IMG/VR virus record: IMGVR_UViG_3300028840_005768
Span: 64,987 to 106,101 of that record
DNA from: a virus
Direction: 5' to 3' (one strand)
Length of the DNA stretch: 41,115 nt
The notes beneath the pieces were generated by a model. That model worked only from the letters and a program-made list of their open reading frames with translations, was not told the origin of the DNA and did not search any database. Of this stretch, positions 37,934 to 41,115 are shown piece by piece; position 1 is the stretch's first letter; each line of letters starts with the position of its first letter. Position numbers and translations under genes: made by a program.

Positions 37934-38015
37934 CCGGGAGCCGGTCGCGGTCCGCTCGTCACCGGGAGCCGGGAGCCGGTCGCGGTCCGCCGGGAGCCGG
38001 TCGCGCGGTCCGGTG
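37934..38015. repeat. Short heptamer-family repeat patch
   Basis: CCGGGAG and CCGGTCGCGGTCCG units. Confidence 0.8.
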
Positions 38016-38143
38016 TCCGCTATTGTTACAATGCGCCCCATAATGTATCGAATCGGCCGCGCTTCCTAACCGCGCGCTGGTCGACGGCCCTAAGTTGTTA
38101 CCCTACAATAGTTTACGGTTCTGTTTACGTACACTTGTAATTG

Positions 38144-38787
38144 CCAGACACCAGACACCGGGAGCCGGTCGCGGTCCGCTTGTCACCGGACACCGGACAC
38201 CGGGAGCCGGACACCGGGAGCCGGACACCGGGAGCCGGACACCGGGAGCCGGTCGCGGTCCGCTCGTCATATAGTGTCGCGGCCCGCTTGTCACCAGACA
38301 CCAGACACCGGACACCGGACACCGGACACCAGACACCGGACACCGGACACCGGACACCGGACACCGGACACCGGACACCAGACACCAGACACCAGACACC
38401 AGGAGCCGGGAGCCGGGAGCCGGGAGCCGGGAGCCGGGAGCCGGTCGCGGTCGCGGTCCGCTCGTCACCGGACACCGGACACCAGACACCGGACACCAGA
38501 CACCAGACACCAGACACCGGACACCGGACACCGGACACCAGACACCAGACACCAGACACCAGACACCGGGAGCCGGTCGCGGTCCGGTTGCGGTCCGGTC
38601 GCGGTCCGGTTGCGGTCCGGTCGCGGTCCGCTCGTCACCGGGAGCCGGGAGCCGGTCGCGGTCCGCTCGTCACCGGGAGCCGGGAGCCGGGAGCCGGGAG
38701 CCGGGAGCCGGGAGCCGGTCGTGGTCCGCTCGTCACCGGGAGCCGGGAGCCGGGAGCCAGACACCACACGCCAGACACCAGACACCA
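38144..38787. repeat. Large mixed heptamer tandem array (CCGGACA / CCAGACA / CCGGGAG plus 21-bp CCGGTCGCGGTCCGCTCGTCA)
   Basis: Directly visible over about 640 bp. Confidence 0.95.
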
Positions 38788-38789
38788 AT

Positions 38790-38984
38790 ATTTTCTCTCA
38801 GAATTTTGTAACGATTGCCCTAATTATTCACCCTAATCCCTCGCTAGGGTGTCTTATTCTGCAATCGCGACACCGCGCGCCCCGATTCTAGGCGAGAATC
38901 CGGCCGGATTCCTCATATATAGGGGCGTTTCCGCGCTTGCAGATACGACATTACTCGCAACCCCTTGTGTCATATAGGTTTACA
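38790..38984 (+). repeat. ~200-bp conserved block, copy A
   Basis: Shares 37-bp and 36-bp identical segments with 39252-39458. Confidence 0.9.
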
Positions 38985-38989
38985 ATTCA

Positions 38990-39018
38990 TTGACAAATGG
39001 TTGCGGGTGGTGTAGAAT
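38990..39018 (+). promoter_or_regulatory. Consensus sigma70 promoter
   Basis: TTGACA-17 bp-TAGAAT followed by an AGGAGG RBS. Confidence 0.85.
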
Positions 39019-39037
39019 TGAATAGGAGGAAACACCT

Positions 39038-39196
39038 ATGTCTGACTACACTAATCTTGCGGCGATTCGGTATTATTTTGAAGCCCCTCCGCACGGGCGT
39101 AAGGTCACTATTGATGAGTTAGTGGCTCTTAGCCCTGTTGAGTTAGCCGAATTGGCATATCTGGTGTGCTGTGAGATACTGCCCCAGGAGACATAA
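39038..39196 (+). CDS. 52-aa hypothetical early protein (not in ORF track)
   Basis: MSDYTNLAAIRYYFEAPPHGRKVTIDELVALSPVELAELAYLVCCEILPQET, with a strong promoter and RBS. Confidence 0.75.
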   Translation: MSDYTNLAAIRYYFEAPPHGRKVTIDELVALSPVELAELAYLVCCEILPQET

Positions 39197-39200
39197 TGAT

Positions 39201-39246
39201 ACCAGACACCGGACACCGGACACCGGACACCAGACACCAGACACCG
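39201..39246. repeat. Heptamer array (CCAGACA / CCGGACA, about 6 units)
   Basis: Starts 5 nt after the stop codon of 39038..39196. Confidence 0.9.
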
Positions 39247-39251
39247 CGCCC

Positions 39252-39458
39252 ATTTTCTCACTAAATTCTGTAGCGACTCTATCGGTTATTCACTCTAATC
39301 CCCTCGCTAGGATGTATTATTCTGCAATCGTGACAACCCGCGCCCCGATTCTAGGCGAGAATCCGGCCGGATTCCGCGCCGATACCTCATATATAGGGGC
39401 GTTTCCGCGCTTGCAGATACTACACTGCTTGCAACCCCATTGCCTATAACAGTTTACG
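39252..39458 (+). repeat. ~200-bp conserved block, copy B
   Basis: Direct repeat of 38790-38984. Confidence 0.9.
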
Positions 39459-39463
39459 TCTAA

Positions 39464-39492
39464 TTGACACCCCGTTGCCAGTAATGTAAACT
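39464..39492 (+). promoter_or_regulatory. sigma70 promoter
   Basis: TTGACA-17 bp-TAAACT, with the same 5-bp offset from the 29-bp palindrome as the 38990 promoter. Confidence 0.8.
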
Positions 39493-39531
39493 AGAGTAGA
39501 GACATAATCCTATTACCTATGGGGGTTACCT

Positions 39532-39624
39532 ATGTTCGCTTTTGCCGCTTTACTGCTTGTCGCGGTCGGATTCGGCATTGCTGCGCTTGCTACCTCAGGC
39601 GCAGGAATCGGGGGGCGTTTCTAA
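39532..39624 (+). CDS. 30-aa hydrophobic membrane peptide (not in ORF track)
   Basis: MFAFAALLLVAVGFGIAALATSGAGIGGRF, with a GGGGG RBS and TAATG coupling to the next ORF. Confidence 0.5.
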   Translation: MFAFAALLLVAVGFGIAALATSGAGIGGRF

Positions 39625-39770
39625 TGGGAGGTAGAATCCGCAAGCTTGACGTAGTTAGACACCCTATGCTGATTATCCGGGGTTTCGGCTTTCGGGTATT
39701 CATGCGGTGTCTACTGGCAAAACAGGGTGAGACGTTTCTCGGAATTCTCGCGAAAGAACACAGAATCTAG
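39624..39770 (+). CDS. 48-aa basic hypothetical protein
   Basis: MGGRIRKLDVVRHPMLIIRGFGFRVFMRCLLAKQGETFLGILAKEHRI, coupled start. Confidence 0.5.
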   Translation: MGGRIRKLDVVRHPMLIIRGFGFRVFMRCLLAKQGETFLGILAKEHRI

Positions 39771-39796
39771 GCTTTACAACTTGGGAGGATTACACC

Positions 39797-41050
39797 ATGC
39801 AACGTATTGATTGTGGCGAACAAATCGATCTTACGCTTCCCACCGGAGTTATCAGTCAATCCGGTCGCCGCGAAATTAACACCTATTTGCAATCCTTGGG
39901 TTTGCCCAGATTGCCGGTTTGGTGGGAATGGATTAGTCGTAAGGGGGGTAGGGGTGAGTACGTGGGAAGCTTCCCTAAGCGCGTCGCCAAGTATTACTAT
40001 CAAACCGTATCGTTCAAGTTGGACCCCGCCCAACTAGGGCATATCGGCAGTATGGTATCGCGCCACACAAACCGGGAGAATTGGTATTGTATCGACTTTA
40101 CTGATTCTTTCGATTGGCAGGATGGTGACTTCGGTGACGATGATTCCTGTTTTTGGGGTGGTCGGAGTCAGGCACGGTCTGACTTAGAATCCGCTGGCGC
40201 GCTTGCTATCCGATTTTACAATGCTGACGGTTATGGCATCGGTCGCGCTTGGATGCTTGACAAGGGCCCCTATTGGGCGGTTTTCAATGGGTATGGCGTG
40301 GAAACCCCCGATTGTGCTCGGATTCTCGCCTATCATCTTGGGTTGTCATATCGCAAGGTTAGTTGTGACAATCGGGGCGATTCTACCGGTTTGATCTATG
40401 TAAACGGTGGCGCCGGTTATATCGTGGGGCCTGAGGAAAACGTCAATGGTGTCGATTATGTCGACCTTGACGTTGACACCAACGAAACCGTCTGTTGTGT
40501 TTGTGGCGAGTGTGTCGACGAAGACGGTGGTATCTACTCGTACGATAATGACTATTATTGCGAGTCGTGCTATTACGACCGATTCTCGCATTGTGAGGAT
40601 TGCAGCGAAACGTACCCCTCTGACGATTTTGTCGAAGTGACAAATCATAGGGGTTATGCTCAGTATGTCTGCGAATACTGCGCTGACAATTACCCGGAAT
40701 GTGAGGATTGTAACAGGCGGTTCGCGACCGATTGTATGAACGAGATTGACGGTCGCGCCGTCTGTGACGACTGTGCTTCCGAGTATCCGACTTGTGAGGA
40801 TTGCGGAGACTGGTGCAATACTCGTCAATCTGACGGTCGTGTCATCTGTGATGACTGTTGGGGCAAGTATATCGTTTGTGAGGAATGTAACACCTATTCC
40901 GATTACTTGACCGATCTTGACGGTCGTGCGGTTTGTGTGGCCTGTTCGGTCCGCTTACGGTCCGCCGGACACCAGACACCGGACACCGGGAGCCGGGAGC
41001 CGGTCCGCCGGGAGCCGGTCCGCCGGGAGCCGGTCGCGGTTTGCCAATAG
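39797..41050 (+). CDS. Hypothetical protein with five tandem double-CxxC zinc-ribbon repeats
   Basis: GGGAGG RBS. N-terminal domain with DSCFW and IGRAW, then ten CxxC motifs. The last ~28 codons derive from the heptamer repeat. Confidence 0.8.
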   Translation: MQRIDCGEQIDLTLPTGVISQSGRREINTYLQSLGLPRLPVWWEWISRKGGRGEYVGSFPKRVAKYYYQTVSFKLDPAQLGHIGSMVSRHTNRENWYCIDFTDSFDWQDGDFGDDDSCFWGGRSQARSDLESAGALAIRFYNADGYGIGRAWMLDKGPYWAVFNGYGVETPDCARILAYHLGLSYRKVSCDNRGDSTGLIYVNGGAGYIVGPEENVNGVDYVDLDVDTNETVCCVCGECVDEDGGIYSYDNDYYCESCYYDRFSHCEDCSETYPSDDFVEVTNHRGYAQYVCEYCADNYPECEDCNRRFATDCMNEIDGRAVCDDCASEYPTCEDCGDWCNTRQSDGRVICDDCWGKYIVCEECNTYSDYLTDLDGRAVCVACSVRLRSAGHQTPDTGSREPVRREPVRREPVAVCQ

Positions 41051-41115
41051 ACACCAGACACCGGGAGCCGGACACCGCGCCGGGAGCCGGACACCGCGCC
41101 GGGAGCCGGGAGCCG
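40964..41115. repeat. Heptamer-family array continuing off the window
   Basis: CCGGACA, CCAGACA and CCGGGAG units. Confidence 0.9.

What the first reader, a model, noticed from the sequence alone, without database searches (positions are those of the whole stretch)
37934..41115. Modular cassette array: heptamer tract + conserved 200-bp block + 29-bp palindrome + consensus promoter + unrelated cargo genes
Seen: the same architecture occurs twice in full. Unit 1 is repeats 38144-38787, block 38790-38984, promoter 38990 and a 52-aa gene. Unit 2 is repeats 39201-39246, block 39252-39458, promoter 39464 and three genes. A new repeat tract starts at 40964, and a degenerate cargo-less unit may lie at 37934-38117. 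The block holds 37-bp and 36-bp identical stretches, including the perfect palindrome GAATCCGGCCGGATTC. The cargo is unrelated between units and looks more AT-rich than the structural genes. Inference: an integron-like or recombination-shuffled array for acquiring and strongly expressing early host-takeover or anti-defence genes. It is loosely analogous to T4-type promoter-stem-loop cassettes but much more elaborate.
Basis: partly seen in the sequence, partly recalled or inferred. Interest (0 to 1): 0.8.

Follow-up and report, generated by a model that had tools for sequence, protein, structure and literature searches.

The report
Host-type heptamer repeats flanking phage early promoters
The early-gene start zone of a 106-kb planctomycete phage holds about 1 kb of 7-base tandem repeats, built from the same two units found between genes of one Pirellulaceae bacterium, plus a duplicated hairpin-plus-strong-promoter module; it is not an integron-like gene-capture array.

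Summary
Four same-strand tracts of 7-nt repeats total about 1.07 kb. A ~220-nt block occurs twice (79% identity), each copy ending in a near-consensus sigma-70-type promoter that drives unrelated small ORFan genes.

The last tract runs across the contig junction into the genome start and is followed by a gene, not a third block. The block is found in no other phage searched.

New here:
- The window is the end of a 106-kb temperate siphovirus of Planctomycetota.
- Its two main units, CCRGACA and CCGGGAG, are combined the same way in about 25 intergenic arrays of Ca. Laterigemmans baculatus. Among 199 bacterial loci holding either unit, only that species combines both.
- Related phages keep a tandem-array zone at the same genome position but with other repeat units.
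- The zone lies at the genome's cumulative GC-skew minimum and holds all five plus-strand G-quadruplex motifs.

Best reading (0.55): heptanucleotide simple-sequence repeats, a known and unexplained class, lie at gene 3' ends next to a duplicated terminator-like hairpin/promoter module resembling T4 PeSLs. Integron-like capture is not supported. This scan noted phage-borne heptamer arrays before on other DNA. Interest is moderate.

The parts
37905..37936 (.). 12-8-12 perfect palindrome CGGTGTCCGATA/TATCGGACACCG; its right arm runs into tract 0
   Evidence: I5
37934..38014 (+). Tract 0: short array of CCGGGAG and CCGGTCG-type units
38015..38143 (+). Possible remnant of the block with the hairpin core deleted. 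Holds a weak promoter-like site, TCGACG-17-TACAAT, at 38081-38109
   Evidence: two collinear patches, each p about 0.04 by shuffling; no BLAST hit
38144..38787 (+). Tract 1: 644 nt of heptamers in higher-order units [CCRGACA run][CCGGGAG run][21-nt punctuation]. Contains two G3N4 G-quadruplex motifs
38788..38989 (+). Block copy 1. The core at 38854-38946 folds as a nested long hairpin around the palindrome GAATCCGGCCGGATTC (38896-38911)
38990..39018 (+). Promoter P1: TTGACA-17-TAGAAT, with TG two bases upstream of the -10 hexamer and a shared GTTGC motif
39038..39196 (+). 52-aa ORFan with a GGAGGA ribosome-binding site; no family match
39201..39246 (+). Tract 2: CCRGACA x6, starting 4 nt after the stop codon of the 52-aa gene
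39247..39463 (+). Block copy 2. Core hairpin at 39317-39420, palindrome at 39359-39374, with an 11-nt insertion relative to copy 1
39464..39492 (+). Promoter P2: TTGACA-17-TAAACT, with the shared GTTGC motif
39519..39770 (+). Small ORF(s): either one 83-aa ORF, or a 30-aa hydrophobic peptide (39532-39624) plus a 48-aa ORF (39624-39770, TAATG overlap)
39797..41050 (+). 417-aa ORFan with C-terminal CxxC repeats. Its last ~29 codons are encoded by tract 3. Nearest look-alike clusters are 85-100% viral
40964..41115 (+). Tract 3, first part. Continues at genome 1-150 after the contig junction and is followed by a 278-aa gene, with no block

Best explanation
The region is the start of the rightward early-gene zone of a temperate ~106-kb siphovirus of Planctomycetota, at the genome's main strand switch. 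It combines two things.

(1) Heptanucleotide simple-sequence-repeat tracts of the known, functionally unexplained prokaryotic class (cyanobacterial STRR; GGGNATC repeats of Xanthomonas and Nostoc). They lie on the sense strand at gene 3' ends. They are built from a C-rich, T-free unit (CCRGACA) and a G-quadruplex-prone unit (GGGAGCC). I infer that they grew in 7-nt steps by slippage or unequal exchange. The same unit pair, in the same G-run / spacer / A-run order, fills intergenic 3' flanks in the Pirellulaceae bacterium Ca. Laterigemmans baculatus. I therefore infer that the tracts reflect the phage's host lineage, either through a shared mutational or recombinational origin or through use of a host factor.

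(2) A once-duplicated ~220-nt regulatory module: a conserved long imperfect hairpin followed by a near-consensus sigma-70-type promoter with a short leader and a strong ribosome-binding site. I infer that this module insulates and strongly expresses small ORFan genes right after infection, as T4 PeSLs do.

The direct-repeat tracts and blocks give homology for cassette loss or gain by ordinary homologous recombination. Unit 0 looks like a deletion product. There is no dedicated capture machinery.

Shown: the anatomy, the copy numbers, the host match and the positional conservation. Inferred: promoter activity, the hairpin's role, the growth mechanism and any function of the tracts.
For: Phage identity and host phylum:
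- gpA-type TerL, portal, P22-like coat protein and tape measure protein are present.
- TerL is 66-74% identical to regions in three Planctomycetota/Pirellulales MAGs, two of them on contigs of 444 and 698 kb. Several relatives are classed as proviruses.

Tracts:
- They keep 7-nt register and a small alphabet.
- Tract 2 starts 4 nt after a stop codon, and tract 3 overlaps a gene's end.

Host link:
- L. baculatus has 102 overlapping (CCGGGAG)x3 matches and 40 (GACACCR)x3 matches, spread over about 25 and 14 loci and mostly paired.
- Only 2 of 121 sampled genomes of its family have a (CCGGGAG)x3 array.
- Of 199 loci from scans for either unit over GTDB species representatives, only its 3 loci hold both.
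- In 9 of 12 scorable host loci the upstream gene is co-oriented with the array and ends within about 150 nt before it, in six of them within 20 nt of the array start.

[quoted passage not shown] All 5 plus-strand G4 motifs of the genome lie in or beside the tracts.

Block:
- Two copies. The hairpin core is 87% identical against 66-73% for the flanks.
- The same nested helices fold in both copies.

Promoters: a family of four shares TTGACA-N4-GTTGC; three of them lie within 3.3 kb of each other across the contig junction.

Position:
- The genome-wide cumulative GC-skew minimum lies in tract 1.
- Relatives G130 (TerL 73%), G002 (44%) and G007 (66%) have tandem arrays with other units; in G130 they lie at the same distance from TerL as here, and in G007 in the matching early region.
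Against: - No transcript, transcription-start or binding data exist. Planctomycete promoters and terminators are poorly known.
- The hairpin has no U-tract and lies 45-60 nt upstream of the -35 hexamer.
- The 278-aa gene after tract 3 has no consensus promoter. It probably depends on read-through, so the tracts are not strong terminators.
- Each unit alone is widespread (Streptomyces, Gemmatimonadota, Treponema and others). L. baculatus has about 64% GC in the sampled loci against 55% for the phage, carries no related prophage, and shows no DNA match to the phage's 36900-38150 stretch apart from the repeats. It may therefore not be the host.
- Relative G006 shows no arrays in the 40 kb examined.
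- (GGGAGCC)n also lies upstream of consensus promoters in unrelated phage contigs with GC as low as 38%. That hints at a sequence-specific role that pure slippage does not explain.
Confidence: 0.55

Rival explanations
1. Functional binding arrays. The heptamer tracts are a phage copy of a host element and recruit or titrate a host factor that recognises the CCRGACA or GGGAGCC units as DNA, G-quadruplex or C-rich RNA. Candidates include Rho, a G4-binding protein or a nucleoid protein. The effect would be to set transcription boundaries, boost the neighbouring early promoters, or mark an origin.
For: - The same unit pair and order occur in L. baculatus intergenic 3' flanks, and the pairing is specific to that species among the loci examined.
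- The array zone is conserved in position in relatives.
- The zone coincides with the GC-skew minimum.
- All plus-strand G4 motifs cluster here.
- (GGGAGCC)n lies upstream of consensus promoters in unrelated phages, even at 38% GC.
- In G001, a (CCAGACA)n array lies beside apparent DnaA-box-like words, TGTGGATAA (my reading).
- The A-run RNA would be 44% C, 22% G and free of U, which is rut-like.
Against: - Relatives use quite different units (ACCCACC, TTTAAGG, 14-18-mers, 25-27-mers), which argues against one conserved ligand.
- There is no DnaA-box excess in the window.
- No candidate binding protein was identified.
- A 7-nt spacing is out of helical phase.
- The function of this repeat class is unknown even in well-studied hosts.
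Confidence: 0.2
2. An active PeSL-like shuffling system. Recombination between the repeated tract-plus-block modules, within and between co-infecting phages or with host arrays, regularly swaps, deletes and captures early genes and may release mini-circles.
For: - Direct repeats flank each cassette, and the cargo differs between units.
- Unit 0 looks like a block with its core deleted.
- PeSLs are strong promoter plus stem-loop modules that mediate such exchanges in T4-like phages (PMC2839356, PMC4122927).
- Host arrays built from the same units would offer homology.
Against: - There are only two block copies, against about 50 PeSLs per T4-like genome.
- The block is absent from every other contig searched, so no exchange event can be documented.
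- An independently listed contig has the same order and content.
- The nearest look-alike clusters of the 417-aa cargo protein are viral, not host.
Confidence: 0.15
3. An integron-like, recombinase-driven cassette array.
For: - A recombinase gene (35560-36255) lies 1.7 kb upstream of the array.
- Each block contains a long imperfect palindrome that superficially resembles a folded attC site.
Against: - The recombinase is a 231-aa serine type kept by relatives that lack the block.
- The tyrosine recombinases lie 12-22 kb away.
- Every cassette has its own promoter.
- The palindrome lies upstream of each cassette's promoter (5' of the cargo) and is missing after the last cassette.
- No third unit follows tract 3.
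- Rfam gave no match.
Confidence: 0.04
4. Assembly artefact. The tract lengths or the duplicated block were created by misassembly of short reads.
For: - Both contig ends lie in tract 3.
- A 644-nt simple-sequence tract is hard to assemble.
- The second contig differs at its repeat-rich ends.
Against: - The two blocks differ at about 21% of positions and by an 11-nt indel, so they are not a collapsed or duplicated read artefact.
- A separately listed metagenome contig reproduces 38617-41115 at 99.6% and bridges to the genome start. It may, however, come from the same sample.
Confidence: 0.06

Closest known systems
Heptameric intergenic simple-sequence repeats of bacteria: cyanobacterial STRR, GGGAATC / GGGGA(C/T)T G-quadruplex repeats of Xanthomonas and Nostoc (Rehm et al. 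2015, PMC4692102), TAACTGA repeats of Beggiatoaceae (MacGregor 2015, PMC4679880)
   Same: 7-nt tandem units, non-coding, strand-polarised, close to stop codons on the sense strand, a GGG-N4 unit able to form G-quadruplexes, lineage-specific abundance, function unknown.
   Different: - These tracts are in a phage, concentrated in one 3.5-kb zone rather than dispersed.
- They are much longer (up to 644 nt, against a preferred four units).
- They are written in a multi-unit grammar with a 21-nt punctuation unit.
- They match the composite pair of one planctomycete species.
PeSL (promoter-early stem-loop) regulatory cassettes of T4-like phages (Arbiol et al. 2010, PMC2839356; Comeau et al. 2014, PMC4122927)
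   Same: A strong sigma-70-type early promoter joined to a stable stem-loop, placed between small ORFan genes from stop codon to ribosome-binding site. The repeated copies offer homology for indels.
   Different: - Two copies instead of about 50.
- About 220 nt instead of a compact motif.
- The hairpin lies 45-60 nt upstream of the -35 hexamer rather than within or next to the promoter.
- The host is a planctomycete and the phage a siphovirus.
- No documented exchange events or mini-circles.
- Heptamer tracts are attached.
Short repeat arrays SRL/SRR next to the terminal repeat of phage T7 (from my own knowledge of Dunn and Studier 1983; not checked here)
   Same: Arrays of about 7-nt words in a non-coding zone near the genome junction of a phage, with unknown function.
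   Different: T7's words are spaced rather than perfectly tandem, lie beside a defined terminal repeat, and are not shared with the host chromosome.
Integrons
   Same: A series of unrelated small genes separated by repeated palindrome-containing elements, with a recombinase gene nearby.
   Different: No IntI-type tyrosine recombinase next to the array, no common Pc promoter, cassettes carry their own promoters, and no attC-like element at the cassette 3' ends.

Membership tests
Prokaryotic heptanucleotide intergenic SSRs (STRR-like / G4-forming heptamers) | Perfect or near-perfect head-to-tail repeats of a 7-nt unit | tested here: met
   TRF period 7, up to 39.9 copies. Parsing shows 7-nt register across the tracts.
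Prokaryotic heptanucleotide intergenic SSRs (STRR-like / G4-forming heptamers) | [quoted passage not shown] | tested here: met
   Tract 2 starts 4 nt after a stop codon, and tract 3 overlaps a gene's 3' end. In 9 of 12 host loci the upstream gene is co-oriented and ends just before the array. Criterion taken from PMC4692102.
Prokaryotic heptanucleotide intergenic SSRs (STRR-like / G4-forming heptamers) | Many loci dispersed over the genome | tested here: not met
   In the phage, all CCRGACA/CCGGGAG tracts lie within about 3.5 kb across the junction. In Ca. L. baculatus the arrays are dispersed over about 25 loci.
Prokaryotic heptanucleotide intergenic SSRs (STRR-like / G4-forming heptamers) | G-quadruplex formation by the G-rich unit | not testable with these tools
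   The G3N4 x >=4 motif is present, and all 5 plus-strand motifs of the genome lie in or beside the tracts. CD spectroscopy is needed.
Prokaryotic heptanucleotide intergenic SSRs (STRR-like / G4-forming heptamers) | Copy-number variation between close strains | tested here: inconclusive
   The second contig (L191) differs only at its repeat-rich, error-prone ends.
PeSL regulatory cassettes | Sequence matching the sigma-70 consensus, acting as an early promoter | tested here: met
   11/12 and 10/12 matches with 17-nt spacers. Activity was not tested.
PeSL regulatory cassettes | A stable stem-loop within, overlapping or adjacent to the promoter, acting as terminator or attenuator | tested here: inconclusive
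   A conserved nested hairpin ends 45-60 nt upstream of the -35 hexamer. Folding z-scores are -2.3 and -1.6, and there is no U-tract.
PeSL regulatory cassettes | Tens of copies concentrated in hyperplastic regions | tested here: not met
   Two block copies and four promoters of the family in 106 kb.
PeSL regulatory cassettes | Indels or replacements between close relatives bounded by the cassettes; mini-circles | not testable with these tools
   No relative shares the block. Reads are not available.
Integron | IntI-type tyrosine recombinase gene adjacent to the array with attI and Pc | tested here: not met
   The adjacent gene is a serine recombinase (PF00239). PF00589 genes lie at genome 12902-13363 and 22268-22750 only.
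Integron | Promoterless cassettes each ending in an attC site | tested here: not met
   Each cassette has its own consensus promoter. The palindrome lies upstream of each cassette's promoter and is absent after the last cassette. No dedicated attC model was available, and Rfam gave no match.

The most novel reading that the evidence does not exclude
The phage deliberately carries a concatenated copy of its host lineage's composite heptamer element (G-quadruplex-prone GGGAGCC run, spacer, C-rich CCRGACA run). It would use a host factor that reads these elements at gene 3' ends to insulate and boost its first-expressed genes. Alternatively, it would use them as homology patches to recombine with about 25 matching chromosomal sites for integration or gene capture. 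Either case would give the long-unexplained bacterial heptamer repeats a testable function.
Probability: 0.2. Interest if true: 0.7.

Novelty: new variant of a known kind. Interest (0 to 1): 0.45.

Why it matters
Heptanucleotide tandem repeats are over-represented in many bacteria, and their function has been unknown for decades. Here a phage devotes 1% of its genome to them, at its early-promoter zone. The repeats use the unit pair of one planctomycete species' intergenic arrays, and relatives keep an array zone at the same position with other units. That gives a compact system for deletion, reporter and pull-down tests of whether such repeats act through G-quadruplexes, Rho or a specific binding protein, or are only slippage products. 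It may also give a repeat-based clue to the host of an uncultured planctomycete phage. The duplicated hairpin/promoter module extends the PeSL idea beyond T4-like phages, though only as an analogy so far.

Tried and rejected
- tRNA or attP reading of 37500-37560. ARAGORN finds no tRNA. The GGTTCGAGCC piece scores as a terminator-like hairpin with a T-run. I first took the end of synteny with G006 as a prophage border, but weak collinear hits continue beyond it, so I dropped the attP claim.\n- Known RNA families: none in 36000-41115 at E<=1.\n- GenBank phages: no DNA match to the region.\n- Cyanobacterial host (STRR, HIP1): GCGATCGC occurs only twice in the genome. The host phylum is Planctomycetota.\n- Origin of replication with DnaA boxes: no excess of TTATCCACA-like words (6 found, 6.3 expected).\n- The block palindrome and the 21-nt punctuation unit in L. 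baculatus: only chance-level matches.\n- A related prophage in L. baculatus, or DNA matching the phage's 36900-38150 stretch: none found beyond the repeats.\n- Homologues of the cargo in relatives: the 417-aa protein is not found in G002, G006 or G007. Only its CxxC-repeat tail matches other phage proteins. Pfam and PHROGs give nothing for the small ORFs or the downstream early genes.\n- Coding reading of the tracts (231-aa and 205-aa ORFs): rejected. These heptamer units (CCRGACA, CCGGGAG) contain no stop codon in any plus-strand frame, and the ORFs have no ribosome-binding site.\n- Literature search for the exact heptamer strings: no paper found.\n- Relatives via ORF 36493-36900 in IMG/VR: none found.

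
Full report
**What the window is.** The window is the last 41,115 nt of a single 106,101-nt virus record. It encodes a gpA-type large terminase, a portal, a P22-like coat protein and a tape measure protein, all on the minus strand. TerL is 66-74% identical to regions in three Planctomycetota/Pirellulales MAGs, two of them on contigs of 444 and 698 kb. 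It is 56-79% identical to most of 76 IMG/VR contigs, and four of the nine longest are classed as proviruses. So this is a temperate siphovirus of planctomycetes.

**The observation.** The tracts, the two blocks and the promoters are at the stated coordinates.
- The tracts are almost entirely in 7-nt register on one strand.
- They use a small alphabet: A = CCRGACA, G = CCGGGAG, and a 21-nt punctuation unit CCGGTCGCGGTCCGCTCGTCA. These are arranged as higher-order units [A-run][G-run][punctuation].
- The tracts total 1,073 nt.
- The heptamer density map of the whole genome shows these units only here and in the first 150 nt of the genome.

**The junction.** The contig end and the contig start join in heptamer phase. 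A separately listed metagenome contig (L191) matches 38617-41115 at 99.6%. It runs on through more CCGGGAG units into sequence like the genome start. Tract 3 therefore bridges the junction. It is followed by about 70 nt and a 278-aa gene, with no block, palindrome or consensus promoter.

**The block.**
- It occurs twice in the genome at 79% identity. Exact and gapped pattern scans of IMG/VR find it nowhere else. BLAST against relatives G002, G006 and G007 finds nothing.
- Conservation is uneven: 87% in a central 93-104-nt segment against 66-73% in the flanks.
- The central segment folds in both copies into the same nested hairpin: CTGCAATCGCG/CGCGCTTGCAG, then GCGCCCC/GGGGCG, then the perfect palindrome GAATCCGG/CCGGATTC. 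Folding z-scores are modest. With two copies, covariation cannot be tested.
- The block ends in TTGACA-17-TAGAAT or TTGACA-17-TAAACT. These promoters belong to a four-member family sharing TTGACA-N4-GTTGC and TG two bases before the -10 hexamer. A third member lies at genome 1074 and a fourth on the minus strand at 17150. Short leaders and GGAGG-type ribosome-binding sites follow.
- Unit 0 (38015-38143) has two collinear patches matching the 5' and 3' parts of the block. Each is marginal on its own. This is consistent with a copy that lost the hairpin core.

**The tracts and the host.**
- A scan for (GACACCR)x4 over one genome per GTDB species hit many taxa, including three contigs of Ca. Laterigemmans baculatus (Pirellulaceae).
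- In that genome, (CCGGGAG)x3 gives 102 overlapping matches over about 25 loci. (GACACCR)x3 gives 40 matches over about 14 loci, mostly the same ones.
- Fifteen loci read in full show a composite: (AGCCGGT)n(AGCCGGG)n, then a ~30-45-nt spacer, then (CCGGAAA and similar)n(CCGGACA)n. This is the same G-run / spacer / A-run order as in the phage, whose punctuation unit takes the spacer's place.
- In 9 of 12 scorable loci the upstream gene is co-oriented with the array and ends within about 150 nt before it, in six of them within 20 nt of the array start.
- Only 2 of 121 sampled genomes of the family have (CCGGGAG)x3.
- Each unit alone is widespread, for example in Streptomyces. But among 199 fetched loci holding one unit, only the three L. 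baculatus loci hold both. None of the 34 IMG/VR loci fetched for either unit was seen to hold both.
- The pairing therefore links the phage to an L. baculatus-like lineage. That species has higher GC and carries no related prophage, so it need not be the host itself.

**Conservation among relatives.**
- G130 (TerL 73%, 100.9 kb) has (ACCCACC/ACCTACC)x17 plus 15-mer arrays 16 kb from TerL, the same relative position as here.
- G002 (TerL 44%) has a dozen different arrays around its contig junction, about 8 kb from TerL across it. One is (CACCGGA)x10.6, which ends 54 nt upstream of a TTGACA promoter.
- The G007 provirus has 25-27-nt arrays ahead of its early genes.
- G006 shows none in the 40 kb read.
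- So an array zone at the early-gene start recurs in this clade, while the units change.
- In this genome the zone coincides with the cumulative GC-skew minimum, which is the main strand switch. It also holds all five plus-strand G3N1-7 quadruplex motifs.

**Comparison with what is known.**
- Heptameric repeats are reported as over-represented in bacteria. The GGGNATC repeats of Xanthomonas and Nostoc form G-quadruplexes in vitro, lie within 50 bp of stop codons on the sense strand and are transcribed. They have no known function, and polymerase slippage has been proposed to explain their abundance (PMC4692102). TAACTGA repeats are another such family (PMC4679880). The tracts fit this class except that they are clustered, very long and phage-borne.
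- PeSLs of T4-like phages are strong sigma-70 promoters joined to stem-loops between ORFan genes, and they mediate indels and mini-circles (PMC2839356, PMC4122927). The block resembles them in layout but not in copy number, and no exchange is documented.
- Integron features are not met.

**Verdict.** The anatomy is confirmed and extended. The integron-like reading is rejected, and the recombination-shuffling reading remains an untested possibility. The most likely account (0.55) is host-lineage-type heptamer repeats at gene 3' ends plus a duplicated hairpin/promoter module at the start of the early region. The main rival (0.2) is that the arrays are functional binding or structure-forming sites. 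In its favour, (GGGAGCC)n also lies upstream of consensus promoters in unrelated phage contigs of 38-55% GC. This scan has noted heptamer arrays in other phages and bacteria before, so the class is not new. The exact host-matched composite and its position are.

Noticed in passing
window 36900-37936: About 1 kb with no convincing gene, holding several 13-15-nt-arm palindromes (36943-36984, 37370-37399, 37559-37590, 37905-37936), a terminator-like hairpin with a T-run at 37532-37549, and a G4 motif at 37717. Promoter-like ATGACA-17-TAGAAT at 36425 precedes ORF 36493-36900.
   Followed up: partly
genome (L192) 4287-4410: Another tandem array in the early region: CGCCCCGCTCTGGC x8.9, 99% matches.
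   Followed up: no
L010 150-260 (IMGVR_UViG_3300046004_000818): A (CCAGACA)n array at both contig ends lies beside repeated TGTGGATAA words, which by my reading match the DnaA-box consensus. A (GGGCATCCAT)x9 array and a 14-mer array lie on the other side. This may be an origin region in an unrelated 83-kb phage.
   Followed up: no
L407 5-260 (IMGVR_UViG_3300049647_000365): (GGGAGCC)x13 at the end of a 38%-GC phage contig, about 110 nt upstream of TTGACA-17-TATATT and a gene that looks like an HTH regulator. This is a very GC-rich heptamer in an AT-rich phage.
   Followed up: no
G007:C5, about 610,000-612,700 (reverse strand of L171/L170): The provirus relative encodes a protein with CxxC repeats like the tail of the 417-aa cargo protein. 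By my reading these are fused to an amidoligase-like domain (GVELE motif). Tandem 25-27-nt arrays precede the gene.
   Followed up: no
L172-L186 (Ca. Laterigemmans baculatus): Besides heptamers, the intergenic regions carry inverted arrays of the hexamer CGAGTA/TACTCG around a GCGCAGCGG core, and 'cacggaaggacacggaa' repeats. This looks like a second repeat family.
   Followed up: no
window 40964-41050: The last ~29 codons of the 417-aa ORF are encoded by tract 3, so changes in tract copy number would rewrite the protein's tail.
   Followed up: partly
genome 12902-13363 (-) and 22268-22750 (+): Two tyrosine recombinase genes (PF00589) in addition to the small serine recombinase at window 35560-36255.
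   Followed up: no
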